From Macrostomum lignano (taxonomy: Eukaryota), in contig NIVC01002322.1 of the NCBI GenBank assembly GCA_002269645.1, positions 120,137-184,136 of the forward strand: a DNA stretch of 64,000 bases. Reading direction: 5' to 3'. The translations under genes and the position numbers were made by a program. Below are positions 33,822 to 64,000 of this stretch, one piece after another. Within the stretch, counting starts at the first letter, position 1. The number at the start of each line of letters is the position of its first letter. The notes beneath the pieces were generated by a model, which was not told the origin of the DNA, did no database searches, and saw nothing but the letters and a program-made list of their open reading frames with translations.

Positions 33822-34159
33822 GCGCACATACATCTGCATGCTCGAGTTCACCCTGCAGTGCCTTGGCGATTTTTGGGAGATCCGAGCTGAGTCTTCGTCC
33901 GTCCAACTCCTCTTCCTCCTTCTAATTACTTTAGCAGCCTTGAATCGGGCCCAAATACCTGATGGGAATGTTGAGATTCGGCGAAGGGTCCAGAAGCACC
34001 TCTTGAGCGAAACCTTGCTCAGGATACGCAGTCCCCGGACCAAAGTTTTTGCGGGTGGGCTGATCCACTTGGAGATCTCATCGATCCTTATGCGTGTCCA
34101 ACTGTCTCTGCCGGGCGCCCGTGCATCAGTTTGTTGCTGCTGGACTGCACTTCTGCGTG

Positions 34160-35945
34160 TCTGCCTGTCTGTCTGTGTCTGTCCCAGTGTCTGTCTCAGT
34201 GTCTGTCCCAGTGTCTGTCTCAGTGTCTGTCCCAGTGTCTGTCCCAGTGTCTGTCCCAGTGTCTGTCCCAGTGTCTGTCTCAGTGTCTGTCTCAGTGCCT
34301 TTCCCTGTGTCTGTCTCAGTGTCTGTCCCAGTGTCTGTCTCAGTGTCTGTCCCAGTGTCTGTCCCAGTGTCTGTCTCAGTGTCTGTCCCAGTGTCTGTCC
34401 CAGTGTCTGTCCCAGTGTCTGTCCCAGTGTCTGTCTCAGTGTCTGTCTCAGTGCCTTTCCCTGTGTCTGTCTCAGTGTCTGTCCCAGTGTCTGTCTCAGT
34501 GTCTGTCCCAGTGTCTGTCCCAGTGTCTGTCCCAGTGTCTGTCCCAGTGTCTGTCCCAGTGTCTGTCCCAGTGTCTGTCTCAGTGTCTGTCCCAGTGTCT
34601 GTCCCAGTGTCTGTCCCAGTGTCTGTCCCAGTGTCTGTCTCAGTGTCTGTCTCAGTGCCTTTCCCTGTGTCTGTCTCAGTGTCTGTCCCAGTGTCTGTCT
34701 CAGTGTCTGTCCCAGTGTCTGTCCCAGTGTCTGTCCCAGTGTCTGTCCCAGTGTCTGTCTCAGTGTCTGTCCCAGTGTCTGTCCCAGTGTCTGTCCCAGT
34801 GTCTGTCCCAGTGTCTGTCTCAGTGTCTGTCTCAGTGCCTTTCCCTGTGTCTGTCTCAGTGTCTGTCCCAGTGTCTGTCTCAGTGTCTGTCCCAGTGTCT
34901 GTCCCAGTGTCTGTCTCAGTGTCTGTCCCAGTGTCTGTCCCAGTGTCTGTCCCAGTGTCTGTCCCAGTGTCTGTCTCAGTGTCTGTCTCAGTGCCTTTCC
35001 CTGTGTCTGTCTCAGTGTCTGTCCCAGTGTCTGTCTCAGTGTCTGTCCCAGTGTCTGTCCAGTGTCTGTCCCAGTGTCTGTCCCAGTGTCTGTCTCAGTG
35101 TCTGTCCCAGTGTCTGTCCCAGTGTCTGTCCCAGTGTCTGTCCCAGTGTCTGTCCCAGTGTCTGTCTCAGTGTCTGTCCCAGTGTCTGTCTCAGTGTCTG
35201 TCCCAGTGCCTGTCCCAGTGTCTGTCTCAGTGTCTGTCCCAGTGTCTGTCCCAGTGTCTGTCCCAGTGCCTGTCCCAGTGTCTGTCTCAGTGTCTGTCCC
35301 AGTGTCTGTCTCAGTGTCTGTCCCAGTGCCTGTCCCAGTGTCTGTCTCAGTGTCTGTCCCAGTGTCTGTCCCAGTGTCTGTCTCAGTGTCTGTCTCAGTG
35401 TCTGTCCCAGTGTCTGTCTCAGTGTCTGTCCCAGTGCCTGTCCCAGTGTCTGTCTCAGTGTCTGTCCCAGTGTCTGTCCCAGTGTCTGTCCCAGTGTCTG
35501 TCCCAGTGTCTGTCTCAGTGTCTGTCCCAGTGTCTGTCCCAGTGTCTGTCCCAGTGTCTGTCTCAGTGCCTGTCTCAGTGTCTGTCCCAGTGTCTGTACC
35601 AGTGTCTGTCTCAGTGCCTGTCCCAGTGTCTGTCTCAGTGTCTGTCCCAGTGTCTGTCTCAGTGTCTGTCCCAGTGTCTGTCCCAGTGTCTGTCCCAGTG
35701 TCTGTCCCAGTGTCTGTACCAGTGTCTGTCTCAGTGTCTGTCCCAGTGTCTGTCTCAGTGTCTGTCTCAGTGCCTGTCTCAGTGCCTCAGTGTCTCAGTG
35801 CCTCAGTGTCTCAGTGCCTCAGTGCCTCAGTGTCTCAGTGTCTCAGTGCCTCAGTGTCTCAGTGCCTCAGTGTCTCAGTGCCTCAGTGTCTCAGTGTCTC
35901 AGTGCCTCAGTGTCTCAGTGTCTCAGTGCCTCAGTGTCTCAGTGT
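34160..35945. repeat. 12-bp satellite (gtgtctgtc[c/t]ca)n with recurrent cctttccct variant, grading into an 8-bp unit
   Basis: Direct reading; explains the 600-760-aa SVCP/SQCL ORFs. Confidence 0.97.
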
Positions 35946-36594
35946 CCTAAAATCCATCACAAGCATTTTCTGTATCTACGCATCCCGTTGTTATAATTTT
36001 TCTATACTCTGTTTCCCACTTGATGGGGCTTCTGTCTGCTTATTTCATAATTTTTGTATCCCATATTTTGATACAAAAGCTGCCTTAAGTCTCCAGTTGC
36101 GATATCCGAGTTGATGGTGGGTCACGAGTTTGCGACTGTCAATAAAAAAACTAACAATTGCATGCACTGCAACACCTGCCTTAGGGGATCAGGTTCGCTT
36201 GGAGACTGGCGCGTGGATGGACACAGGATGCAGCTCCACTTTCGCGTGGAGATCGAGAGGCATTTTTTTCTTAGATTTTTTAAGTTTGAGGCTCACAGCT
36301 GGCTTTTGGCCAGCGGCATGGGGGGTCAGGGGGGCGCCATGTTTTGGTCATAAACTTTATTGAGTGCCGATTGCAAAACAGACAGATGGACAGACGGTAA
36401 GCATCAAATGTTGAGCATGATCTCCTGGCATTGTTGACACCTGGCTAAGGAATTGACGTCGGGATAGCAACTGAAAAAATAATTCCTAGAATAAAAACTT
36501 CTCTGACAAATGAATGGCTGTAAATGGTGTTGGATTTGGGATTTTTATAGAAATTGCCCTTAGGCTGAGAAGATTGGGTATAGAGGCGCTGTAT

Positions 36595-50945: not shown

Positions 50946-52400
50946 GACGGACTGAAAGCGCCGATAATCAAACCAATTGAAATTTGTCACCCGCCTCCTC
51001 CATTACTGAAATTCCTCAAATGATAGCTGGCTTGAATTTGTGTACGCAACCTCCCCCCAACTACAATCTTGGCAGAAAGTTTAAAAGTATGGAAATCGTT
51101 TTTTTCAATGCTGTGCTTTTTGTTTTCATATTTAAAGCAAATAACTTATATCCCCGAATTTAGCGTTGCAAGATCGAGCAAAGCTTCAAAGCATTAAGTA
51201 TCGAGTGTACATTCACCTGCCTGCTGTTTATTCATTGAATTTCACTGCCCAGCTAATATACAGCCAGGGCTGCCTTTCGAAAGGCGCCGATAATAAAACC
51301 AATTGAATCTCGACACAGTCCTATCTATCTGTTTACAATGTACATTGCTATGTACACTCAGCCCAAACCAACCCTCCGTTCTGGGGGGAATCATTAAGTT
51401 TAACTGAACCCCCCAACACGCGGGGGGTTTTATTAGCATTGAACCCAGAACACGCATCACCCACCCCTCCAATACACAGCGACCTGCGGGGGGGGGGGGT
51501 TGGGGTGGTTGTTTTTACAACTAATGCCACTGGAGAGGCAAAGTGGCCAAAGAAGGTTAAGAAAACAGTTTTCTGCTTTTTTAGCAGACTTAATTTTGAA
51601 AATTTCAACATTAAAATAGCCTATTTGTTGCGTAGGAAAATTCTGCATTGATATATATAAGTCGCGCATTTGAGTTGCCAGCCGTTTAGGAGGAGATACG
51701 CGTTAAACCCGGCCGGTCGATCGATCCACTCAGCTTTAGATATAAGATATAATAAGATTCCAAGATTGAAATCGAATATCTCAGAGGTGCCCAGAGAAAG
51801 TCTGTTATGCAGAATAGCTGAGTATCTCACACACCAATTTCAATTTTGACTGACTGAAATTGATGATGAAGAACCCGAAGCAATTGAAGTGGGGGTCACT
51901 GATGCCGCTTAAAAATCGCTCGAGAAGCTGGACTGCAGGACTCCGATAGCTGAGGATGGACAGGTTTGAGGAAACCTGATAACGTCTCATGCGCCCTTCT
52001 ACTCAAGATTTTCAAGAGAATGGATGGGCGATGAAAAATATGGCTGGACTGGGGGCAGGTCATTAGGTTAATAGATTGAAAGCCCCCCCCTGAGCCCAGA
52101 CTCAGGCGCGTGCCCCCCTGACCACTTGTCAAACACAGCGGGGGCCCCGCGTGCGCTCAAACAAAAATGGGCGGTTGAGCAAAAAACTGAAATTCCTCAA
52201 GTTGCAGGCCTCGAGCCGTTCTGTAATCAAACAGAGGCGCTTATTAATGGCTGGGTTTGGGACCCGATGCCTCAGCTCCATCATCTAACACTGCCATCTT
52301 CCCATTGTTCTATTGAATTTGGGAGATATATGGTCAGACATTTGAGTTAGCTCAGACTGGACAATGGGAATCGTTCCCCACTCATTGAGCCTTTGACCAC

Positions 52401-52668
52401 AGTAGTATAGAAAAAGACGCTTCTAGACCCAGAGCACTTTTTTAATGACCGTTTTAAGGGTCTAGAGGGGGGACACGGGGGGTAAATAAAAAAACACATC
52501 TAAACACCCTTAACACATCTAATCACCCATAATCACCCCTAACAATAAAAATCACTTCCCAACACTTCCAAACACTCCCCAACACCCCCCTCGCGTCCCC
52601 CCTCTTAAGACCATAAAAACGGCCATTAAAATAAGGTCTGATCTAGAAGCGTCTTTTTCTATACTACT
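52401..52668. repeat. Inverted repeat: perfect 27-bp arms 52401-52427 / 52642-52668, extended imperfectly to ~85 bp, around a G-free loop
   Basis: agtagtatagaaaaagacgcttctaga is the exact reverse complement of tctagaagcgtctttttctatactact. Confidence 0.95.
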
Positions 52669-52753
52669 ACTCTATAACCCCTTGCCCGCGCCGCAGGCGC
52701 TAAGGGTCGGAAAGAATAGAAGCTATTTATAGTCAGTTCACCTACCCACCCAA

Positions 52754-52851
52754 CATTCCATTTAGACCAGATTTTAGACCAAACAAAACTAGACTATCGT
52801 TTTGGTTTTCGTTTTCAAAAATTTGGTCTAAAATCTGGTCTAAATGGAATG
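52754..52851. repeat. Perfect 30-bp inverted repeat (52754-52783 / 52822-52851), 38-nt loop
   Basis: cattccatttagaccagattttagaccaaa versus tttggtctaaaatctggtctaaatggaatg. Confidence 0.95.
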
Positions 52852-52889
52852 CAGACAATCTTTTTCTGTTACTAAAAATAGAACAAAAA

Positions 52890-53299
52890 ATGACACACGT
52901 TACACATATGCAAAATCTGAATGAATTGCAGGTAGGAGACCCAGTTGAATACCGAGGTGAGGGGCTTTTTGATGTGGTTGGAACAGCAGCAAATTTTGTT
53001 AAAGACAATATGGGGCTTATAGGGCAAGCTGGCTCCGCAGCAGGTTCTATAACAAATGCTGTAAAAGGAGGAATTGAAGCAGCTAGAGCGGCAGAAGAAC
53101 TAAAGAAATTGAGAGAATTTAACGATACCCTCTCACAGATAAAAGCAATAAAAGATTTGAAATTAGCACAGGAAGCAACCCAAGCCGCACAACCAACAGA
53201 AACCCCACGAAAAGCGCACCAATAAGTAATAAAGATATTCAGGATTTTAATAAAATGTTAAATACTATTAAAGGTGGAAAAGGATTAAAGAAATTTTAA
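52890..53299 (+). CDS. pVI-like virion precursor protein (amphipathic helix after GEG|; probable -1 frameshift near 53205 giving C-terminus ...IKGGKGLKKF)
   Basis: aaaaaATG start; YRGEG|LFDVVGTAANFVKDNM; VKGG; the -1 frame 53204-53299 reads PTKSAPISNKDIQDFNKMLNTIKGGKGLKKF*. Function is inferred. Confidence 0.6.
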
Positions 53300-53309
53300 C
53301 AATATAAAA

Positions 53310-54303
53310 ATGGGCTCAGTTAATGATGATGAAAACCGGTTATATTTTATAGGAGAAATTGTAGATACTTTAGATCTTGATGATAATAAGCAAACCCACA
53401 CAATGTTAAAAAGATTGGATCGATTAGGTAAAAAGTTTGACTACGACATCGATACATTTAAACTCGCAGCAAAATATGCACAAGAAGGAAGGCCAATATC
53501 CTTTAAGAATCGCGGCAGAAATTATAGGTTGACAGACTCTGATGTGAAATTTTTAATGGAGACTCACACTAAAAAGGACGGTGGATTACTACCCATTCTA
53601 CCGCTTCTTTTAGGGCTTGGCGCAGCTGGAGCAGTCGGTTTAGCCGGAAAAAGAATTCATGATAATGTAAAACAGCTAGGAGAGTTAAGAGCGAAACAGG
53701 GGGGAATCTTACCCCTTGCAGCTTTGCTCCCAATAATTTTTGCAGGAATTGGAGCAGCTGGAGGAGTTGCTGGCGGAGCAGCTGGAATTGCAAAAGCAGT
53801 AAATGACAAAAAAGCTGCGGACGAAAAAGCCAAACGAGATGCAGAATTTCAAAGACAGCAAATAACGCAGGACGCACAATTTAAACAAAAACTTATCGAT
53901 ACAATTAATAGTAGTTCAGCAACAGCTGAGCAAAAAAGAAATGCAGAAGCTAGGTTATCAGCTGGAAAAGGGTTAATACTAAAAGGATCAAATCATGGCA
54001 ATGGTTTACTTTTACAAGGAACAACCCAAGGAAGTGGAGTTGTCGCAGATAAACTACACGAATTTGGCCAAACTTTAGAAAAAACGGGTGAGAAAGCTAA
54101 AGGATTTTTTGACAATATTGGATCCAATTTTAGACCAGCAGTTCAGAAGATTTTACTAAATTAGGAAAAGATTTTAACATCATTGAAAAACATGATGGAA
54201 GCGGATTATATCTCGAAATGAGACCAAAAGCAGGTTCAGGAATTTTCTTAAATTCAAACGTTATGGCAATGGATTGCTATTACCAAAAGCAGATCTCGAA
54301 TAG
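53310..54303 (+). CDS. pX/mu-like polyprotein precursor with repeated GG|/GxG| motifs (intact to 54164, continued by -1 shifts)
   Basis: KDGG|LLPILPLLLGLGAAG and KQGG|ILPLAALLPIIFAGIGAAGG resemble the adenovirus pX tail MRGG|ILPLLIPLIAAAIGA; GKG|LIL, GNG|LLL, GSG|VV; downstream frames give GSG|LYL, GSG|IFL and GNG|LLL. Confidence 0.7.
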
Positions 54304-54387
54304 GCTCCTGGGGGTAGGGTCTGGACACCAAAAACGCAAAATTAAAAAATCAATAATTCAAACATTATATAAATTATATTCTATAAA

Positions 54388-57300
54388 ATGGAACAAAGAT
54401 TGACCCCAGATCAGATTCGACAACTTCTTGCAAATGAGCGCCAACAGTTCAATCGATTACAAAGACAGATTGAACAAATTGAACAGCGCCAAAGACAACA
54501 ACGCCGCCAAAGAGCAAGAGAAAGACAGAGAGAAAGGCAGAGAGAAAGAGAAATACAAGACCAACAAATAAATGCATTAGCAAATAATATAAGGGCAGAA
54601 TATGAAATGAAGCGATTAATAGAAAAGGCTGAATATGAAAAAAGAATAGCAGAATTAGAAAAAAACCAAAAGAAACCCACACGTCGGAAACCTCGGAATA
54701 AATCGGATGAAAAACCATTAGATGAGTTTATTAGGGTTTATCGATTTGAACCAATGCAGAATGTCTTAGATTTTATTGAAACCCAGCTATCAAACGGATA
54801 TGCTGTTGAAATTACTAATGCGAGGGTACAATATTTTTATAATAAAACCGGAGATGATCGTGAAGAGATTAATCAATACTTAGCAACATTTTATAATATA
54901 AGTCAATTTCAAGCTTGGTTTAAGCATTTGGTAGAAAATTACGACATGAATTTAAGTGTGTTTTCTGGAAGACTTAAAATGACACCAAACGAAATTACAC
55001 TTAAACACGAAAGGTCAAAGCAGGGTATGGGAACAAATGTCATGTGTGAAATTGCAGAGTATAAAGATGAGTACTGTTACATACCTAGTGATGGAAATTG
55101 TTTCTATAAGTGTGTTCAGTTTATTTATGGTGATAAAGCCCCACGCAAAGACGAATATGGTGCTTGGTTGTACGACTCAAGAACTCAAAGAGGTTTAATG
55201 ACAAATTCAAGAATTGGAAGATTCAACGAACATTTTAATCTTAGTATAGGGCTGTACAACACCAAAAATCGTGGCATTGAACCAAAGTCTCAAAGAGGGA
55301 TTCACCACGATTGGTTATTAATAAATTACTTTCACACACCCGATTATCACATTGGTCATTATTGTCTTATATCAAATAAACAACGAGGAATCGCCCTCGA
55401 ACGGATAAAAGACAATTATAAAGTTGTATATAAAAACCCAACGCTCGAAAATGTTAAGGAGCTAAAAATGTTCAACACACCCACAAATCCCAATAAATCA
55501 AACGTATATATATTTGATTTTGAAACATATTTAAATTATAATCAACAAGCATGTCCGTATGCGGTTGGTCTTTTAAACTATAACGCCTTTTCTAATAAGT
55601 GTAATGAAACCCCAGAGCAAATAAAGAAACTAACTAAGATCTTGATATCAGATCGCGGTTGTGATTTTCAAACAGATGGAGATAAGGTTGACCGTGCCGA
55701 AGGTTCGCAACCAAAGGTTGATTGTGTTAGAAAAATGTTTAAATACCTTGGTACAGTTAGGTCAAAAAAGATTGTTTTGATCGCGCATAACTCATCCCGC
55801 TTCGATTCATACATACCACTATTTTGTAATATAAAACCAATTAAAATTCTCAAAACCCCAAGAGGAATATTATCAATAACTTTTGTAAACGATTACGCGT
55901 CAAAAGAGGTTAGCGCATTTATAAACAAAGATAAGAAGAAGAATCATAAGGATTCGAAACAAACCATTACGATGCTTTGTTCATATCAACATGCATCAAT
56001 GAGTTTAAAAAAGTTTTGCTCATCAATGACAATTAGAGAGGATTTGCGAAAGACCTCAATGGTTCACGACATTACCGAACACGACTATTTAGAGCGCATG
56101 GACGAATGGTATGAATATTTACAATTTGATCTTATTTCTTTATGCGCCTGTATTCATAAGTATAATGAAATAGCATATGAAATTGGAGGAATGACAATGT
56201 TCGATACTCTTACCTGTTCAAGTTTAACATTAAAATGTTGGTTTAAAGATTTTGTTAGAGTTGAAGACAAAATGAAACAATATCTAAAGACAGAAGAAAA
56301 AACTAATTACATTAAAAAAGTTGAAGAAATAATATCTCCGTTGAAAATAGAGGATTATTTTGACTTAAGCAAACTTGAAAAAGCAAAATACCAAACACTA
56401 TTAAGAAAAGAATTTTCAGTTCACTCTCATACCAATCCTTATATACGAAGGTTTATGCGGGACGCAGTCAAAGGAGGCAGGGTATTTGCACTAATAAATA
56501 AATATGAAAGCGACTGTTTTCAAACAATTGTAGACGTTGTAAAAGCCCATTTAAAAACACCAACAAGCGACCCATGCGAGGTTATATCATCTTATCTCAA
56601 AAGCGATATGGAAGAAAAAAAGAAAATCGCAATTAAACTAAAAAAGCAATTGGGTACCGTATCAGATTGTTTAATGAATTTTGATGGAGTTTCGTTGTAC
56701 CCATCTGCCATGTCTGATAAGGATAGTGAATATCCAAGAGCAGAAACAGCAAGAGTTTTTGATATAAGCGAGGAAAAAGATTTCTTGGCACAATTTAATT
56801 CACAAACCTTTCGACCAAAAACAGCGGTTTTAAAGATTATGTATGAGAATCCTAACACCGTTTTTCTTCAACATCTCCCATCGAAAGATAAAGAGAAATT
56901 TTATAATCCGGAAACAAAAGCAAACGAAACAAAAACATTAAATAGGTTTAGAAACGGAAAAGTAATTGACACCTTATGTTCCGTAGATATACAAGAAATT
57001 GTAAGAATGGGTGGAAAAATATTAAAGATATATAGTGGAATTGTATATGAAAAAAATTACGATTTCTCTCCGTTTCAGAATTATATTACAAATCTTTTTG
57101 AAATGAGAAAAGTATTTAAAAAAGAAAATAACGAGGCAGGTTCTGAATTGGTAAAAACACTATTAAATTCATTATATGGCAAAACAGTTCAAAGAGACAT
57201 TACTTTCACAACACATCTCTGGAATTTGCAAACATTAAAAACCGAATACGATGACACAATCAAATCATATGAGAAAATATGTGACGATTTATATTATGTT

Positions 57301-58008
57301 GAAAAAAATAAAGACACGCAAGAATATGTAGATGAGGAAGAGGAAAGCCCTATAACAAGCCTTTGTCCAGCACAATTAGGAATATTTATCTTAGCTCATT
57401 CAAGAAGGATCATGAATAATTTTATTACCTCTATAGAGGGCTCAAAGACTCCAGAAATTTATTACGGCGATACAGATTCGTTATATATACATAAAAAACA
57501 TTGGGACACATTAAATAAAAACGGGCACGTTGGAAATAACTTAAGTCAAGGAAAAAATGATTATGGAGAGGGTGGAATTATATTCGGTTATTTTATCGCT
57601 CCTAAAATTAAATATTGTCTTTTATTGAAAGACGATTTTATTATGGAAGAGAAAAAAACATTTAAAGGATGTGCAAACGATAAGATTAATTTTGCATCGT
57701 TTAAAACTTTATATGATGGACAGTCAATAAAAGTAAATAATAATGCTCCGTGGAAACGATCATTTGAAGGTGGTATAACAATTCCTCAAAGCGGATCAAC
57801 AATATCAAAAACATATAGCTCTACGATAAACACATTTAAAAGAGAAAAACCGGATAAAAACGGAGTTATGAAACCATTCTTTAAAAACTATTTTGATGAC
57901 AAACCACAGCATGAACAATCAATTGAATATTATAACAGTTTACTATTTGACGTTGACTATAATTGTTTTGAGTTCGATATTGATGAATTAGCACTTGAAA
58001 AAAACTAA
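54388..58008 (+). CDS. polB: Protein-primed family B DNA polymerase with N-terminal TP-like region and vOTU-like protease domain, 1206 aa, intact
   Basis: ExoI FDFET, ExoII HNSSRFD, ExoIII YLQFD; PolA DGVSLYPSAM, PolB KTLLNSLYGK, PolC YGDTDS, KxY in APKIKY; OTU-like IPSDGNCF...GHY. Confidence 0.96.
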   Translation: MEQRLTPDQIRQLLANERQQFNRLQRQIEQIEQRQRQQRRQRARERQRERQREREIQDQQINALANNIRAEYEMKRLIEKAEYEKRIAELEKNQKKPTRRKPRNKSDEKPLDEFIRVYRFEPMQNVLDFIETQLSNGYAVEITNARVQYFYNKTGDDREEINQYLATFYNISQFQAWFKHLVENYDMNLSVFSGRLKMTPNEITLKHERSKQGMGTNVMCEIAEYKDEYCYIPSDGNCFYKCVQFIYGDKAPRKDEYGAWLYDSRTQRGLMTNSRIGRFNEHFNLSIGLYNTKNRGIEPKSQRGIHHDWLLINYFHTPDYHIGHYCLISNKQRGIALERIKDNYKVVYKNPTLENVKELKMFNTPTNPNKSNVYIFDFETYLNYNQQACPYAVGLLNYNAFSNKCNETPEQIKKLTKILISDRGCDFQTDGDKVDRAEGSQPKVDCVRKMFKYLGTVRSKKIVLIAHNSSRFDSYIPLFCNIKPIKILKTPRGILSITFVNDYASKEVSAFINKDKKKNHKDSKQTITMLCSYQHASMSLKKFCSSMTIREDLRKTSMVHDITEHDYLERMDEWYEYLQFDLISLCACIHKYNEIAYEIGGMTMFDTLTCSSLTLKCWFKDFVRVEDKMKQYLKTEEKTNYIKKVEEIISPLKIEDYFDLSKLEKAKYQTLLRKEFSVHSHTNPYIRRFMRDAVKGGRVFALINKYESDCFQTIVDVVKAHLKTPTSDPCEVISSYLKSDMEEKKKIAIKLKKQLGTVSDCLMNFDGVSLYPSAMSDKDSEYPRAETARVFDISEEKDFLAQFNSQTFRPKTAVLKIMYENPNTVFLQHLPSKDKEKFYNPETKANETKTLNRFRNGKVIDTLCSVDIQEIVRMGGKILKIYSGIVYEKNYDFSPFQNYITNLFEMRKVFKKENNEAGSELVKTLLNSLYGKTVQRDITFTTHLWNLQTLKTEYDDTIKSYEKICDDLYYVEKNKDTQEYVDEEEESPITSLCPAQLGIFILAHSRRIMNNFITSIEGSKTPEIYYGDTDSLYIHKKHWDTLNKNGHVGNNLSQGKNDYGEGGIIFGYFIAPKIKYCLLLKDDFIMEEKKTFKGCANDKINFASFKTLYDGQSIKVNNNAPWKRSFEGGITIPQSGSTISKTYSSTINTFKREKPDKNGVMKPFFKNYFDDKPQHEQSIEYYNSLLFDVDYNCFEFDIDELALEKN

Positions 58009-58052
58009 AGCATGTAATTGTTTGAGCAAATCATTAACTTCAATTTCATATA

Positions 58053-58340
58053 TTATTGAGCACCAATTATCCTCACAGTCGCAGGGTAACTTAAACAATC
58101 CTTTATTTTTTTCCTAAGTTTTTTTATTTTTCTAACCAATCTATCTATTTCAATTTCAATTACTATTTCAGCATAAACAATATCTTGTCTTAAAAAACGT
58201 TTTCTTTTATCTATCTCATATCGGATGGGAAACATATCGTCCCCATACTCATGATATTTCTGAGATATAATTATATTTATTTTTTTATTAATATCATTAA
58301 GTTCACGCTCTTTAGTGATAAGGATTTTTATCGTATCCAT
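58053..58340 (-). CDS. Viral hypothetical protein, 95 aa, basic/coiled
   Basis: ATG in tataagaaaATG context; packed between PolB and the next ORF. Confidence 0.6.
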   Translation of the reverse strand: MDTIKILITKERELNDINKKINIIISQKYHEYGDDMFPIRYEIDKRKRFLRQDIVYAEIVIEIEIDRLVRKIKKLRKKIKDCLSYPATVRIIGAQ

Positions 58341-58361
58341 TTTCTTATAAAAAATTTAAAC

Positions 58362-58691
58362 TTATTCGGGGTCATCCTCCCAAACAGCCGCCAATTTTAC
58401 AGTCCTATCACTCTTTTTATTATTTGTTTGTTTTAGTTTAAATTGCAATCCACCCTCGATGCAGTATTTCATAACAAACGCTTTAGGTTTATTAATAACT
58501 AAAACTGGAAAATTTTTAACATCATCTCCGCTTAGACATAAAATTTTTTGCCCATCTAATTGTAAAAATATTGATTGAAGTCCAATAAATTTAACCTGTC
58601 TCAAACATATAATATTATATTCTTTATTCTCCAACATATTGGGTGTGAGATAATTAATCACATTAGAATCGGTTTTGAACCAGCTCTCCAT
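58362..58691 (-). CDS. Viral hypothetical protein, 109 aa, beta-rich with acidic C-terminal tip
   Basis: taaaaATG start; compact gene spacing; ends WEDDPE. Confidence 0.65.
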   Translation of the reverse strand: MESWFKTDSNVINYLTPNMLENKEYNIICLRQVKFIGLQSIFLQLDGQKILCLSGDDVKNFPVLVINKPKAFVMKYCIEGGLQFKLKQTNNKKSDRTVKLAAVWEDDPE

Positions 58692-58717
58692 TTTTAATCT
58701 AAAAAAATAACAAAAAA

Positions 58718-58906
58718 ATGAAAGACATTTATGTTTGTAATAAATGTAATGTGACTATGCACAGAGGGCAAACAGCAAACGGAGATATATATCATATGTG
58801 TTATTCATGTTCTAAAATATATCAATTTGAAAAAACAAAAAGATTGAAAACTCATATTACTATTTTAAAAACAAATTTTAAGAAATCTTACAAGAGACAT
58901 TTCTGA
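58718..58906 (+). CDS. Small Zn-ribbon protein (CNKC...CYSC), 62 aa
   Basis: Two CxxC pairs; aaaaaaATG start; divergent from 58691 with a 26-bp gap. Confidence 0.6.
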   Translation: MKDIYVCNKCNVTMHRGQTANGDIYHMCYSCSKIYQFEKTKRLKTHITILKTNFKKSYKRHF

Positions 58907-59020
58907 TCCAATTTTAATTCCCGGAAATAATGTTTATTTATATAATAACTTTTTCCATTTAAATAAAGGAAAGGGATTAAGTTCGAAAGACTCCGAAAGG
59001 ATTTTAATTTTAGTTGGATA

Positions 59021-59206
59021 TTATTTCAATTTTCTTATTCGAGAGAATACAAAGTTTATAAGGATAGGTAACATACCTAACGAAATGTTATTGAAAAAGT
59101 CATTGGAATTTTTATGTATTGATAAAAAATTTAAACCTAGGATCAGAAGAGAGTTACCACTTTGGGAAGAATATATAACATATGCATTAAATAAATTAAA
59201 CAACAT
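59021..59206 (-). CDS. Possible small hydrophobic viral protein, 61 aa
   Basis: Its ATG overlaps the end of the upstream gene; two hydrophobic stretches. Confidence 0.35.
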   Translation of the reverse strand: MLFNLFNAYVIYSSQSGNSLLILGLNFLSIHKNSNDFFNNISLGMLPILINFVFSRIRKLK

Positions 59207-59851
59207 TAAGTTCTACAGCACTTCCTGACCGTGGGCTTTGTGCCCCAGTAGCAATAGTTTCGGGTTCGTAAATGCCTAATGTTTCTATCGGTGGAGCTTT
59301 GGGTTTATCGAGTCTCAACTCTTTTAATTCCATATCGGTAAAAGTTTCAACATCTAAAATTCTATTTCTATCTTTTAAATATTTTTCATATAACTCAACC
59401 GCGGTTGATAACTCGTGAATCGTTATCTCTCCGTCATCCAATATTTTTTGCACATATAAATATAATGATTTTTATATTGTTTTGCAACATCTCTTAATGA
59501 TTTATATTTTTCCTTTCTTTTTTTAAGATATAATTTAATTGCTAAAAGTATTGATAAGTTCCTGATCAATTCAAAACCTGATATTGAGCCAATTGAAATA
59601 CCTAAAAATAATTGAGATAAATTAAGAGTTGGAATAGATTGTAAAATACCTAAAACGATTACACATAACATTGATAAGCTTCCAAATCCAATATTGAAAA
59701 AGTCCATATTTCTTATATGGTTTGAAACTCTTCTTACTTTTTTAGCATATAAATCATAATCATAATTTATTCGATCAACATTACTCAACATCTGACCTTT
59801 ACGTTGGTTGAACCGGTCGCGTTCCCATTTATCTGCTTCAGATACCGACAT
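59196..59851 (-). pseudogene. Two-TM viral membrane protein with DGEIT motif, split by a 1-nt deletion in an A-run (~59445)
   Basis: ORF 59423-59851 (coiled coil + 2 TM) joins ORF 59196-59453 (ILDDGEITIHEL) if A6 is read as A7. Confidence 0.7.
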
Positions 59852-59913
59852 TCTCGTCTATTTTTAATAGCACCAAAATGAATTCCCCGCGCTCTTTGGG
59901 GATTTGCCCGAGC

Positions 59914-60162
59914 TCAATAGGTATTGTATTGGAGTGATTCTTTCTTTTTTCTCCCATTTAAATCCATTTTCCAAAACTCTTGAAGTATAATATGATTTTT
60001 TAATAACTTAATTAATTCTTGAAGCTTCTTATTATCCTGAACATTTACAGTACTAAATAAAAATTTGGTATGAGATTTGAATGTTTTTATATTTGATTCT
60101 TGTTTAGGAATAGGAATATAGACATTATTTTGCCGCATCGATGGAGTTCTACTAAAAGCCAT
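59914..60162 (-). CDS. Viral hypothetical protein (MAFSRTPSMRQ...)
   Basis: ctatataaaATG start at 60162; the 3' end may be frameshifted. Confidence 0.45.
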   Translation of the reverse strand: MAFSRTPSMRQNNVYIPIPKQESNIKTFKSHTKFLFSTVNVQDNKKLQELIKLLKNHIILQEFWKMDLNGRKKKESLQYNTY

Positions 60163-60193
60163 TTTATATAGAATTATTTTATATATAAATATT

Positions 60194-62210
60194 TTATATT
60201 TGAGTAGGAGGTTTTTCCAAATAAGCAGTAGAGGGAAAAACATAACCAAACGACGTACTACCACATACAACTGCACCACGAATAAAATGTGCAGCATCCG
60301 ATCCTCCAGTTCGAGCACCAAAACCCATAAGGGTTCCAGATTTATCTAAAGTTCCCCAAGTTCCACTATCATATGTGAAAACGTTCTGCCCAATGAGGGT
60401 ATAAGAATCACCAGCAACATTGTATGTATGAATTATACCAAACCCTTTGATTTAAAATATTAATTCAAATAAATGCCAATCCGTTATCAATATTTGCATA
60501 GGCTAGTTTGATCCGCGTCAGTATTAACATCGCGCGGCTTGATCCGTCTGATTTTTTTACTCCAATACCAAATATCATGCCACTCACTTGCAAAAACTAT
60601 CAATCCGCGTCGGTTGATAATCCAGATCCAAATTCCGATGTTGGACGTTGGTGACAGTATGCATAAAACCAAACCGCATCTGCACCATCTCCTGTAGCAT
60701 TAGCAACTCGGAAAAAGAAAGACGCAGATATATTTTGAAAATGTGTGAAATTGAATTGTAAAGCACCACTTACTCCAGAAGTTTCACGAGTAATTCTAGC
60801 GCCGTTTTGATAATCGATATAAGAAGCGTCACCAATTAAAGAACCGACTGGATATATATCTCCGGCGGTTGTTGGATTTTGATATCCAGACCAATTACAA
60901 ATTACTGGTTCGAACAAGGCCGCATCAATAGCAGGTATTCCATCCAATTTATTTTTATCGCTTCCAGACATTCTACCATTTGATGTTGGAGTAGCTAGCT
61001 GATCTACGTACGCTCGCGAACTGCAGAAAGTATTTGAGTTGGCCAATTAAGATCTTGAATTTCAACACGGTGTTCAAATAATTGTATTTGACGAACCTCG
61101 ATAGGTTGTGTACCGGTACCACCAGTTGGGAAGAATACGCTATAATATTTCCAAAAATTAGTCGTTAAATTAGATAGAGCAAATGATGTTGCTTGAACTG
61201 GTGATCCGACGTAGTTAATGTCGTCCATGAATCGGTAGCAACATTTTTGCGCGAACCGACCACCCCGAGGGTATCTCAATTGTTTCACTGCCTGTAATTC
61301 TTAATTCAAATATTCTTCTATTATAACCTAAAAATTCAAATTGAATTTCCATATTGGTTGTGGTTCCGGTATTTGGTGACCATTGTGTCGCAAGGCTTCC
61401 ATCTCCAACTCGAAAAGCTGTGTTGCCATTTTCAGATGCTGTAAGAACAACATCAGGATTTGAAGTATTTGATGTAAGCGGCGTGGTAAAAATATCGGCG
61501 TCGGTTGCATTAGCTCGCTCGTTTACTTGGCCTAGAGTTATCGAGTCTGCGTTCTCTGTTCCAAATAATAAATTTGTTAATTTAAAATTATTCATATTAA
61601 TATTTCCACTACGAGTGGCAACTTGATTATCGACATAGTTCTTATCAACACTGAATCACTAGTTGTAATTGAAACATTTATAATTCGGTTGTTGCTCATA
61701 TCTAGGTTTCCGGTTGCGGTGGTTTGAACATAACGTGAATCAGAATCAGTTCGAGAATAAGAATCAGTTACATCTCTTTTTAAATTTAATCCATTATCAA
61801 CTTCGGTTTTGGTATAAGAATCGGCTACGTTCCGTTTCAAATTTAATGAATTATCAACTTCGGTTTTGGTATAAGAATCGGCTGTATTGCGTTTTAAATT
61901 TAATGAATTATCAACTTCGGTTTTGTATAAGAATCGGTATTGCGTTTTAAATTTAATGAATTATCAACTTCGGTTTTGGTATAGGAATCGGCTACGTTCC
62001 GTTTCAGATTTAGTGAATCATCTATTTGAGTTTTGGTATAGGAATCTGCAACATTTCTTTTTAAATTTATTTTTAGTATCAACTTCACTTTTTTTATAAC
62101 CTTCATCTTCATTAATATATCGATTATCTCCAAATGTAACACTTATTCCACCAGATGTACCACCACCACTACTTGTGTTCCGTTCCATGAGGGTGTTCAG
62201 AAAATAACAT
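60194..62210 (-). pseudogene. Fibre-like protein: 19-aa shaft repeats, NxxI-NL..D...YVD stalk motifs, F5/8C-like domain, phage-tail-fibre motif, L-type lectin head; multiple frameshifts
   Basis: About 6 copies of KRNVADSYTKTEVDNSLNL (57-nt DNA repeat); GNLDMSNNRIINV..KNYVD..GNINMNNFKLTNL; AFRVGDGSLATQWS..YYSV..VRQIQLF; ATPTSNGRMSGSDKNKLDGI; SFFFRV..GDGADAVWF...WH..ELIF...GFGARTGG..H.I; stop at 60194-60196. Confidence 0.75.
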
Positions 62211-62221
62211 TTTTTACTGTC

Positions 62222-62714
62222 TATTTTATAGAGTCTAAAATCGTGGCCATCGGCAATGCTTTGCATGATATTCTTAAATACTTCGGGGTTTTTCGAGTTA
62301 TTAATTTTATATAAAAAATACAACGCCGCTTGCCCGCAATAACTTTTATCAAATGTTTGAAACTGTTCGTGATGATCTCCACATAAACGATTTTAGTATG
62401 ATTAAATTTGTCTTTTATTTCCTGTAACGGAGAAGCGCGTATGAATCAAAAAAATAAACAAGTTTTGGTTTTGAATAAACTGCTGACAATGAACACCGTT
62501 TTCTTTTGTTGTTTCAATATTAACAATGAAAGATCCATATTGTGGTAAGTCTTTGATCTCATCTCGCATAACACATCTGAATGGTTTTATTTTAACTGCC
62601 TCGCCAATTTGTTAATTCGATATTGCTTGTTGTGTCGCTTCCATATCTTTGTTTAAAATCATCCACGTCATGTCATTTTTGTTTCCTGAAAAACTCATCC
62701 CACGTCATGGTCAT
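62222..62714 (-). pseudogene. Adenain/Ulp1-like maturation cysteine protease (PRO), frameshifted
   Basis: Reading across 1-nt shifts gives TSNIEL..IKPF.CVMRDE..LP, FIVNIETTKENGVH[W] (His 62489-62491), YFFDSY (Asp 62445-62447) and QFQTFDKSYCG (Cys 62336-62338). Both ends are approximate. Confidence 0.8.
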
Positions 62715-62715
62715 T

Positions 62716-62898
62716 TTATGTTGCTGAAAAACTCTTGGTTTTAGTTAGTTTCGTAGGTGTGGGTTTTAACAATTCCTTTCTTATTTTATCAGCTTGTAAC
62801 TGCTTTAATTTTGCTAGTTCTAGTTCGTAATTATCTTCAGCTTTTTTAACTTTTTCTGATTGTTTTTTTATTAAATTATTATTATTATTATTACCCAT
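62716..62898 (-). CDS. Small basic coiled-coil viral protein, 60 aa (MGNNN...)
   Basis: ctatagtaaaaATG start; fills the gap between penton and protease. Confidence 0.5.
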   Translation of the reverse strand: MGNNNNNNLIKKQSEKVKKAEDNYELELAKLKQLQADKIRKELLKPTPTKLTKTKSFSAT

Positions 62899-62911
62899 TT
62901 TTACTATAGGA

Positions 62912-63688
62912 TTAAACCTGTTTTATACGTAAAATTATTGTTATTGACTGCCCACCAAAACTTATTAATCTATCGCTTTCATCTACAATCCTAATATAAA
63001 TTGATTGAACGCTATATTGATTTAAAGGATAATATATTGGGGTTTGGGGTGCAACAATCATTTTCTCTCCAATTGGAACAGCAAGAAATGGGATTGAATA
63101 AATAATTCCACGTTGAACCAAAACTCCGTTATCGTCTGTTATATAACCACCGTTTGAAATGTCGGTTGTTATATTAATTGTATTTACTCCACCCTCTATA
63201 TTTCCAACTGTATCACCGGTGCTTGATGTGGTAACTATTCGGGAATTAAATCCAAGTATGGTTCTGAGTGAATTTGCAATTGTGAAATCAACCTGATATC
63301 CGGATCCTAGTGATAGTGTGAATCTGCCAGACGGTAAATCAACACTATAACAATTGCTCCTGCTACCACCATTAGTTGTTAATTCTCCTTCTATATAAGC
63401 ATTCAAATCAGTATAGCTATACGCTCCTGGGTTAACGCTAAATGTTGTCCAATTGGCTCCGGAATCTTTAGAATATCTAAATTGATTATTTGTTGCATTA
63501 ATTAATTGAGGCATGTTGAAAACCGAAAATAGTAAACCTATTTGATAACTTAGGCTTTGATCAAGTTGTAATGGATCGCGCAATTGAATCCGTTGCTCGC
63601 TGGTTGTCATTATAAACTGTAATGTTGTACTAAATTTTGAATTAGTTCGATCTACCAATTGTTTTATAGTATTTAAATTTGTAGTCAT
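62912..63688 (-). CDS. Minor capsid protein (penton, single jelly-roll), 258 aa
   Basis: Polinton mCP pattern: NNQFRY..PGAY...LN..I, SLRTILGF, P.GEKMIVAPQTPIYYPL..SIYIRIVDESDRLISFGGQSITIILRIK. Confidence 0.88.
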   Translation of the reverse strand: MTTNLNTIKQLVDRTNSKFSTTLQFIMTTSEQRIQLRDPLQLDQSLSYQIGLLFSVFNMPQLINATNNQFRYSKDSGANWTTFSVNPGAYSYTDLNAYIEGELTTNGGSRSNCYSVDLPSGRFTLSLGSGYQVDFTIANSLRTILGFNSRIVTTSSTGDTVGNIEGGVNTINITTDISNGGYITDDNGVLVQRGIIYSIPFLAVPIGEKMIVAPQTPIYYPLNQYSVQSIYIRIVDESDRLISFGGQSITIILRIKQV

Positions 63689-63757
63689 TTTTTATAGTGG
63701 GAATTAATCGTACCGAAGTCGCGTGCTATGTCTCTTCTTCCTCATTATCTTCTTTTA

Positions 63758-64000
63758 TCAATTTGTTAAAATTCTATGTTTCCTTTCTAACCTCGGATTG
63801 ATATAAATATGTTTGTATTGGCTATCAATCCCAAATTTTTTACACATACTTTTAAATGGTTTTGCATCCAATCCGGGATTAAATCTAGCGTGAATATTTT
63901 GTAGATCATAGTTATCTAAATCAAACATTACACAACAGCTAGCATTCTTTTTTAATCGATTCTAATTCTCTAAAGGATTGAGTAAGATAAAAAGCTCCAT
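63758..64000 (-). pseudogene. C-terminal part of A32-like (FtsK-HerA) packaging ATPase, cut by the window edge, one frameshift
   Basis: YLTQSF..L..I|KNASCCVMF...DLQNI...FKSMC...IYIN matches the Q...IR.N sensor/arginine-finger region; stop at 63758-63760. Confidence 0.7.

What the first reader, a model, noticed from the sequence alone, without database searches (positions are those of the whole stretch)
52401..52851. Unusual terminus: AGTAGT...ACTACT 268-bp fold-back followed by two more hairpins
Seen: a Polinton-type AGTAGT start whose 27-bp perfect inverted copy (imperfect to ~85 bp) lies only ~240 bp away rather than at the far end of the element. It encloses a G-free loop of aacac/aatcacc repeats (~52484-52590). 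Next come a GC hairpin CCCTT-gccc-GCGCC-gca-GGCGC-t-AAGGG (52679-52706) and a perfect 30-bp inverted repeat (52754-52851). No TSD flanks the 268-bp unit. Inference: either a folded terminal origin for protein-primed or strand-displacement replication, or a mini-element (MITE-like) with both termini sitting at the viral end.
Basis: partly seen in the sequence, partly recalled or inferred. Interest (0 to 1): 0.7.

Follow-up and report, generated by a model that had tools for sequence, protein, structure and literature searches.

The report
Self-folding end of a flatworm Polinton
A virus-like jumping element in a flatworm genome carries, just inside its end, a mirror copy of its own terminal sequence, so a free single strand could fold back on itself and probably rebuild or repair its replication start without having to find the element's far end.

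Summary
The fold-back is real: 82-bp arms (27 bp perfect, 84.5% overall) around a 104-nt loop, inside a 110-nt G-free run. It is the true left end of a multi-copy Polinton, probably of Macrostomum lignano (polymerase 100% identical to its proteins). In contigs of four studies, depth jumps 70-260-fold at 52401, mixed flanks join there, and two runs hold the empty site. Loop and inner arm have about coding-body depth, so this is neither an artefact nor an amplified MITE. The GC hairpin is at chance level; the 30-bp hairpin is real but skipped in many copies, so it is not core. The polymerase keeps a terminal-protein-like domain (Tyr/Ser linker) and an intact vOTU dyad, so the hairpin has not replaced protein priming. 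Best reading (0.45): a local panhandle and back-up template for the origin. The right end, TSD and flip-flop could not be tested. A 2026 preprint describes short terminal palindromes in protist virophages/PLVs, mostly without pPolB. This scan noted other hairpin-ended Polintons on other DNA, not this layout.

The parts
52395..52400 (+). Last 6 host bases (GACCAC): expected left copy of the 6-bp target duplication; partner not in the window
   Evidence: An 870-nt host contig in runs X3 and X11 matches to 52400 and then goes on for 461 letters unlike the element, i.e. the empty site (table 8, records 9 and 25). The TSD itself is untested.
52401..52482 (+). Outer arm of the fold-back and true element end; starts (AGT)2; the first 27 bp (52401-52427) are perfectly complementary to the inner arm
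   Evidence: Depth step and 5+7 contigs with mixed flanks before 52400/52401 in X1.
52483..52586 (+). 104-nt loop; G-free on + (run to 52592), so C-free and G/T-rich on the - strand; short repeats AACACATCTAA x2, TAATCACCC- and CACTTCC-like units; no structure of its own
52587..52671 (-). Inner arm: inverted, diverged copy of the terminus, perfect over 52642-52668, with a third ACT to 52671
   Evidence: Depth about equal to the coding body.
52679..52706 (.). Small GC hairpin with a GCA loop; not above chance
   Evidence: z -1.75 on +, -0.37 on -
52707..52860 (.). Optional block of about 152 bp holding a TATA-like box on the - strand (about 52726-52733) and the 30-bp-arm hairpin 52754-52851; skipped in many copies; no TSD
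   Evidence: Joints 52706/52708 to 52859-52862 in X3 and X12; bin 52721-52800 at 0.37-0.55 of body depth in 4 of 4 runs
52890..53225 (+). First ORF, 111 aa, no family
53310..54164 (+). 284-aa ORF with GG(L/I)LP motifs; weak likeness to adenovirus core protein X (Polinton PZ-type gene, label recalled)
   Evidence: Pfam PF05829 E 0.008, below cut-off; Atlas hits 0.86-0.88, leads only
54388..58008 (+). Protein-primed DNA polymerase B, 1206 aa, open frame; terminal-protein-like domain (about residues 114-200, Tyr185) and vOTU domain (Cys238, His324)
   Evidence: PF03175 E 1.9e-18; model pLDDT 86; OTU structural matches Z 5.0-5.3; column counts
62018..62611 (-). Pieces of a probable adenain-like protease gene (His and Q..CG motifs, recalled), broken in this copy or its assembly
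   Evidence: no Pfam hit
62912..63688 (-). 258-aa ORF, candidate minor capsid protein (motif recalled; not shown)
   Evidence: Atlas nearest clusters viral, commonest Preplasmiviricota, score 0.97-0.98; single-sequence model failed; no PDB or Pfam hit

Best explanation
52401-52671 is a fixed part of the left end of an active-looking, multi-copy Polinton, not a passenger. During protein-primed strand-displacement replication the displaced minus strand ends here with ...ACTACT-3'. That 3' end can pair with the inverted copy about 240 nt inside, across a loop that cannot fold by itself, and so rebuild a double-stranded origin locally. The polymerase's own terminal-protein domain could then re-initiate without the genome-long 'racket' or panhandle of the standard model. 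The same fold gives a back-up template from which a nibbled end can be re-copied, which would keep the last 27 bp identical while the deeper arm drifts. Shown: anatomy, terminal position, multi-copy status, retention of TP-like and vOTU domains. Inferred: that the strand folds in vivo, that pPolB uses it, and end repair.
For: The terminus is exactly at the outer arm. Loop and inner arm are at about body depth in 4 studies, so most copies carry them. The 27 terminal columns are all identical against 44 of 57 (77%) deeper in; by hand 0.77^27 is about 0.001, with the boundary chosen after the fact. The loop has no structure, and a differing loop variant in one X12 contig is also G-free over its 28 loose letters. 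Four of 5 wobble-type mismatches are G-T on the minus strand, whose 3' end is here (not significant). Tyr185 in the alpha2-beta4 loop aligns with Tyr in 13 and Ser in 8 of 24 relatives (3 gaps); Cys238 is C in 20 of 24 and His324 is H in 21 of 24, the rest gaps, as described for polinton TP and vOTU domains. Precedent: fold-back repair of protein-primed telomeres in Streptomyces.
Against: No experiment or episomal read. None of the 32 contig pieces shown (of 2474) spans the whole fold-back, so continuity across copies rests on noisy depth (body bins vary 0.38-2.27-fold). One variant at single-copy depth skips 52500-52628, the loop and part of the inner arm; it may be a dead copy. The right end is unseen, and an ordinary long TIR there would make a local panhandle unnecessary. 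None of the 12 related loci showed an element end; the 6 scanned had no comparable repeat, so conservation across species is untested. In Streptomyces the repair used the short Palindrome I hairpin, not the long-range I-IV pairing that resembles this one. The DNA energy gap between strands is small (-65.1 vs -63.3 kcal/mol).
Confidence: 0.45

Rival explanations
1. Fixed relic: a 268-bp mini-Polinton once landed at the tip, or a template switch duplicated the end in inverted form, and the outer copy became the working end. The inner copy has no role or is only passively homogenised.
For: The unit has complete AGTAGT...ACTACT ends. A TSD would be lost once the outer end is reused, so its absence does not exclude this. 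The arms have diverged to 77% beyond 27 bp.
Against: The terminal 27 bp are perfect. The loop is G-free, also in a diverged variant. No second AGTAGT start follows 52671.
Confidence: 0.22
2. Hairpin self-priming as in parvoviruses, or as proposed for Halocafeteria virophages/PLVs: the paired 3'-OH is extended past 52671 to give a hairpin-closed duplex, later resolved or left as a snap-back dimer.
For: The folded 3' end is fully paired, with template continuing inward. The same model was proposed for terminal palindromes in a 2026 preprint. Unchecked scan notes describe giant palindromic Polinton satellites in other genomes.
Against: TP-like and vOTU domains are retained. The preprint's palindromes go mostly with non-pPolB replicases. 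Among the 9 joints listed none changes strand, and none of the 24 of 165 loose ends shown lies at 52668-52671. This is weak, because 31-mer contigs cannot bridge a 27-bp arm well.
Confidence: 0.15
3. The 268-bp unit is a currently mobile MITE-like mini-Polinton that happens to sit at the viral end.
For: Both of its ends carry the Polinton end motif. The first 80-bp bin has 1.6-3.4 times body depth.
Against: Loop bins are at 0.71-2.04 and the inner-arm bin at 0.81-1.32 times body depth, within body noise. The tip excess is expected if the right end shares the first bases. No TSD.
Confidence: 0.07
4. The fold-back acts as RNA: an outward promoter (TATA-like box on the minus strand near 52730) drives a long hairpin transcript that yields small RNAs.
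For: As RNA the minus strand folds better than the plus strand (-129.8 vs -108.4 kcal/mol). A TATAAATA box points toward the end.
Against: The box lies in the block many copies skip. The 14 Rfam matches all lie on hairpin 3 and far below gathering scores; none is on the fold-back. No RNA run was laid.
Confidence: 0.08
5. Long-read fold-back or assembly artefact.
For: Several genes in the right part of the window are broken, which may reflect read errors. The filled junction at this locus was not among the contig pieces shown.
Against: The arms differ at 13 of 84 columns and enclose 104 unique bases. Loop and inner arm are covered at element depth in runs of 4 studies, 3 if one is the source.
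Confidence: 0.03

Closest known systems
Polintons/Mavericks of animals (Barreat and Katzourakis 2021, PMC8097293; passages read)
   Same: (AGT)2 end motif, pPolB, multi-copy insertion with a sharp end.
   Different: That paper gives TIRs of 46-1447 bp and has no occurrence of 'hairpin' or 'palindrom'. Here an inverted copy of the end lies 240 nt inside the same terminus.
[quoted passage not shown]
   Same: A palindromic structure at the very end of an integrated polinton-related virus, next to the target site; hairpin role proposed, not tested.
   Different: There: 52-nt palindromes (subtype 5), found with a gap limit of 10, mostly with non-pPolB replicases, in a protist. Here: 82-bp imperfect arms, a 104-nt G-free loop (which that screen would miss), an animal host and a pPolB with TP-like and vOTU domains.
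Streptomyces archetypal telomeres (Yang et al., PMC5449611; passages read)
   Same: Protein-primed end whose 3' single strand can pair with an internal copy (Palindrome I with IV); GNA-loop hairpins; fold-back repair of clipped ends.
   Different: Bacterial Tap/Tpg system with no homology shown; 13-bp duplex; repair used the short hairpin; replication starts internally. Analogy only.
Adenovirus and bidnavirus panhandle origins (BmBDV, PMC4938981, passages; adenovirus recalled); Polinton 'racket' model as cited in PMC4196379 (passages)
   Same: A displaced single strand regains a duplex origin by pairing inverted repeats; protein priming.
   Different: They pair the two far ends; BmBDV is stated to lack terminal palindromes. 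Here the pairing partner is local.
Parvovirus/AAV inverted terminal repeats (recalled; search listing only)
   Same: Terminal fold-back with a fully paired 3' end.
   Different: No Rep/HUH nickase seen in the 11.6 kb available, a large unstructured loop in place of T-arms, flip-flop untested, and an own protein-primed polymerase.

Membership tests
Polinton/Maverick | Protein-primed DNA polymerase B | tested here: met
   PF03175 E 1.9e-18, 67 bits against cut-off 25.8
Polinton/Maverick | (AGT)2 or (AG)3 end motif at a true insertion boundary | tested here: met
   AGTAGT at 52401; depth step, mixed flanks and empty site; motif from PMC8097293
Polinton/Maverick | N-terminal vOTU domain on pPolB with catalytic Cys and His | tested here: met
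   OTU chains fill most top rows at modest Z 5.0-5.3, rmsd 3.2-3.9, about 100-110 aligned; Cys238 and His324 invariant in ungapped relatives
Polinton/Maverick | PRD1-like terminal-protein domain (4 strands, 2 helices, Ser/Tyr before the last strand) | tested here: inconclusive
   Topology and Tyr/Ser position fit. No TP or LF/PAD chain was listed among solved matches; the best viral-model hit is an adintovirus protein, E 3.4e-4 but TM 0.26.
Polinton/Maverick | Terminal inverted repeats at both ends and a 6-bp TSD | not testable with these tools
   The right end lies beyond 64000; no whole genome is held
Polinton/Maverick | Retroviral-type integrase, packaging ATPase, major capsid protein | not testable with these tools
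   Not identified in 52401-64000; the rest of the element is outside the window
Polinton/Maverick | Minor capsid protein and cysteine protease | tested here: inconclusive
   Candidates at 62912-63688 and 62018-62611; no Pfam or PDB hit
MITE / non-autonomous mini-Polinton (268-bp unit) | Own target-site duplication | tested here: not met
MITE / non-autonomous mini-Polinton (268-bp unit) | Many solo copies in excess of the autonomous element | tested here: not met
   Loop and inner arm at about body depth in 4 runs; a minority of solo copies is not excluded
Parvovirus-type rolling-hairpin telomere | Flip and flop orientations of the hairpin interior | tested here: inconclusive
   No strand-changing joint among the 9 listed, but contigs cannot resolve a 27-bp arm
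Parvovirus-type rolling-hairpin telomere | HUH/Rep nickase | not testable with these tools
   None among the 9 element ORFs scanned or the 5; the element is incomplete in the window
Halocafeteria-type palindromic virus ends | Near-perfect palindrome with a gap of at most 10 nt, mostly with a non-pPolB replicase | tested here: not met
   The loop is 104 nt and the replicase is pPolB

The most novel reading that the evidence does not exclude
Some animal Polintons have true self-folding telomeres: each end carries its own inverted spare origin across a composition-constrained unstructured loop. It serves for local re-initiation and end repair by the protein-primed polymerase and, when the 3' end is extended instead, yields snap-back palindromic derivatives. 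The layout may be widespread but missed, because TIR searches compare the two far ends and the one palindrome screen I read allowed only 10-nt gaps.
Probability: 0.3. Interest if true: 0.75.

Novelty: new variant of a known kind. Interest (0 to 1): 0.5.

Why it matters
How an integrated Polinton gets from an excised or displaced strand back to a double-stranded, integrable genome rests on a model in which ends 15-20 kb apart must pair (as cited in PMC4196379); I found no direct test of it. A 270-nt end that can form the origin alone offers another route and a small, defined substrate for testing Polinton polymerase priming in vitro. The probable host is a laboratory flatworm with many near-identical copies and an empty-site allele, so copies can be compared and free forms looked for.

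Tried and rejected
Whole-genome copy survey: no genome is held. Exact terminal patterns gave 0 hits in viral contigs and in prokaryote genomes. pPolB or 258-aa ORF relatives: none in viral contigs or prokaryote genomes. Metagenomes gave 12 loci at 33-73% best-segment identity; the 6 longest or best were scanned for inverted repeats and none had a comparable one, and none of the 12 held the arm's G-block motif; most are too short to reach an end. No second copy of either repeat lies in the window. G-quadruplex in the minus-strand loop: a G4Hunter-type score reached 1.92 over 25 nt, but ViennaRNA predicted none; left as a lead. A telomere-repeat reading was rejected: one TTAGGG only. Rfam: 14 matches, all sub-threshold miRNA models on hairpin 3. 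The 258-aa ORF folded alone gave pLDDT 34. Literature: searches listed no paper describing a long-loop internal inverted copy of the end in an animal Polinton; most hits were seen as listings only, and Repbase reports, the 2006-2007 founding papers and supplements (the preprint's are closed) were not seen. The scan's notes hold nothing on this genome or look-alike DNA.

Full report
Observation. The sequence is as described. Perfect inverted repeats lie at 52401-52427/52642-52668 (27 bp) and 52754-52783/52822-52851 (30 bp); they are the only ones of 14 bp or more within 400 nt in the 11.6 kb of element in the window. The first pair extends to 82 bp per arm with 71 of 84 columns matching. Shuffles give at most 14 bp (300 shuffles) and the 268-nt strand folds at z about -14. 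The G-free run is 110 nt (52483-52592; maximum 76 in 1000 shuffles) and has no structure. The small GC hairpin is not above chance (10 and 64 of 200 shuffles). No TSD flanks the unit, hairpin 3 or the block that holds it.

Context. GC falls from 0.49 in a minisatellite-rich host region to 0.33 after 52401. A 1206-aa protein-primed polymerase starts 2 kb downstream. It is 100% identical over part of its length to a protein named as Macrostomum lignano and falls in a 10-member cluster, 9 of them named as that species, so the host is probably that flatworm. A weak core-protein-X-like gene, a candidate minor capsid gene and a broken protease-like gene fit a Polinton but were not confirmed. Integrase, ATPase, major capsid gene and the right end were not found in the window, and no genome is held.

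Population evidence. Of 20 runs listed, 11 hold half or more of the sampled words. I laid contigs of 4 of them, from 4 studies, on 52001-54400; one may be the window's source. Summed depth rises 72-264-fold at 52401; the tool warns that this is no copy number. In X1, 5+7 contigs carry mixed flanks before 52400/52401. In X3 and X11 an 870-nt contig follows the host flank to 52400 and then goes on for 461 letters unlike the element, which I read as the empty site. So 52401 is a real, repeatedly used end, and this insertion is polymorphic or limited to one paralogous copy; the filled junction itself was not among the 32 of 2474 pieces shown. Loop bins lie at 0.71-2.04 and the inner-arm bin at 0.81-1.32 times median body depth, while body bins vary 0.38-2.27-fold. 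This excludes a copy-specific artefact and a strongly amplified solo MITE. It leans toward one fold-back of this sequence per element, without settling whether the right end repeats it. The tip bin is at 1.6-3.4-fold. Hairpin 3 is optional: joints skip about 52707-52860 in X3 and X12, and the bin 52721-52800 drops to 0.37-0.55 in 4 of 4 runs. A second, diverged version of the outer arm appears as loose ends before 52462 (3 contigs in X11, 2 in X12), and one X12 contig has a different but again G-free loop; these may be the right end or a sister family. One variant at single-copy depth skips 52500-52628. Of 155 substitution rows 40 were shown; 2 fall in the fold-back (52613, 52616) and none in the 27-bp arms. 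None of the 9 joints changes strand and none of the 24 of 165 loose ends shown is at 52668-52671, but such contigs cannot test flip-flop properly.

Priming machinery. A model of pPolB residues 101-364 from a 25-sequence alignment (pLDDT 86) has a beta-alpha-beta-beta-alpha-beta domain followed by a domain matching OTU proteases at modest Z (5.0-5.3). Krupovic et al. (bioRxiv 10.1101/2024.03.18.585575; section 6 and passages read) place the linking Ser/Tyr between alpha2 and beta4. Here that loop holds Tyr185, aligned with Tyr in 13 and Ser in 8 of 24 relatives (3 gaps); Cys238 and His324 are invariant where aligned. No solved TP or LF/PAD chain was listed for the first domain, so its identity rests on topology and the linker. 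The hairpin has therefore probably not replaced protein priming.

Mechanism. Following established adenovirus-type replication (recalled) and the Polinton racket model (as cited in PMC4196379), initiation at the far end displaces the minus strand, whose 3' end is at 52401. I infer that it folds on the inner arm, giving a local duplex origin and a spare template. This explains the perfect terminal 27 bp against 77% identity deeper in, the unstructured loop and, weakly, the 4:1 bias of wobble pairs to the minus strand (not significant). Streptomyces telomeres show fold-back repair of protein-primed ends, though through their short hairpin and not the long-range pairing (PMC5449611, passages). 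I give this reading 0.45. Rivals: a fixed relic of a captured mini-element or template switch (0.22), hairpin self-priming (0.15), hairpin RNA (0.08), mobile MITE (0.07), artefact (0.03). The missing TSD does not separate origin from relic.

Comparison and novelty. The end motif is standard for Mavericks (PMC8097293, passages). Terminal palindromes with a proposed priming role were reported in July 2026 for Halocafeteria virophages and PLVs, mostly without pPolB and found with a 10-nt gap limit. Folded ends on polinton-related viruses are therefore not new as an idea, but this long-loop form on a pPolB element of an animal differs and would have escaped that screen. Eight searches listed no description of it; subscription papers, Repbase and supplements were not seen. 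Unchecked scan notes mention a hairpin in a Giardia Polinton end, a 50-nt palindromic tip in a chytrid virus and giant palindromic Polinton satellites; I did not test them. Conservation in other species is untested, because no related locus showed an end.

Verdict. A real feature and the true end of a multi-copy Polinton; a new variant of a known kind; function inferred. Interest 0.5.

Noticed in passing
window 52400/52401: An 870-nt contig in two runs carries the host flank and goes on without the element (empty site), so this insertion is polymorphic or limited to one paralogous copy, which suggests recent activity.
   Followed up: partly
window 52707-52860: An optional block of about 152 bp with a perfect 30-bp-arm hairpin (each arm has TTTAGACCA twice; the loop can form two short arms) lies 30 bp before the first ORF. 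At least two different short alleles replace it in other copies; no TSD.
   Followed up: partly
window 52428-52461 and after 52511: Loose contig ends show a second, diverged version of the outer arm and a different G-free loop: possibly the unseen right end or a sister family.
   Followed up: no
window 53303-53312, 54381-54390, 52880-52892: Element genes start right after A-rich, TATAAA-like motifs (TATAAAAATG before the 284-aa ORF, TATAAAATG before pPolB); a window scan found 25 near-matches against 6.9 expected, many in host DNA.
   Followed up: partly
window 61757-62069: A 57-bp repeat in 5.6 copies lies inside a minus-strand coding region (DSYTK-E-VD-L-LK units), in a probable fibre- or tail-like gene (label recalled) that is broken into several frames.
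   Followed up: no
window 58000-64000: Many minus-strand genes are in pieces while pPolB is open; decay or assembly error was not told apart.
   Followed up: no
window 1-51000: The host region is packed with different mini- and microsatellite arrays (most of the 88 tandem-repeat rows); the long 'ORFs' there, such as 33838-36114, lie on repeats.
   Followed up: no
L005:1-600: Upstream of a related pPolB lie two diverged copies of a unit of about 190 bp with a GC-rich GCGT/GTGC stretch between them; not an element end as far as seen.
   Followed up: no
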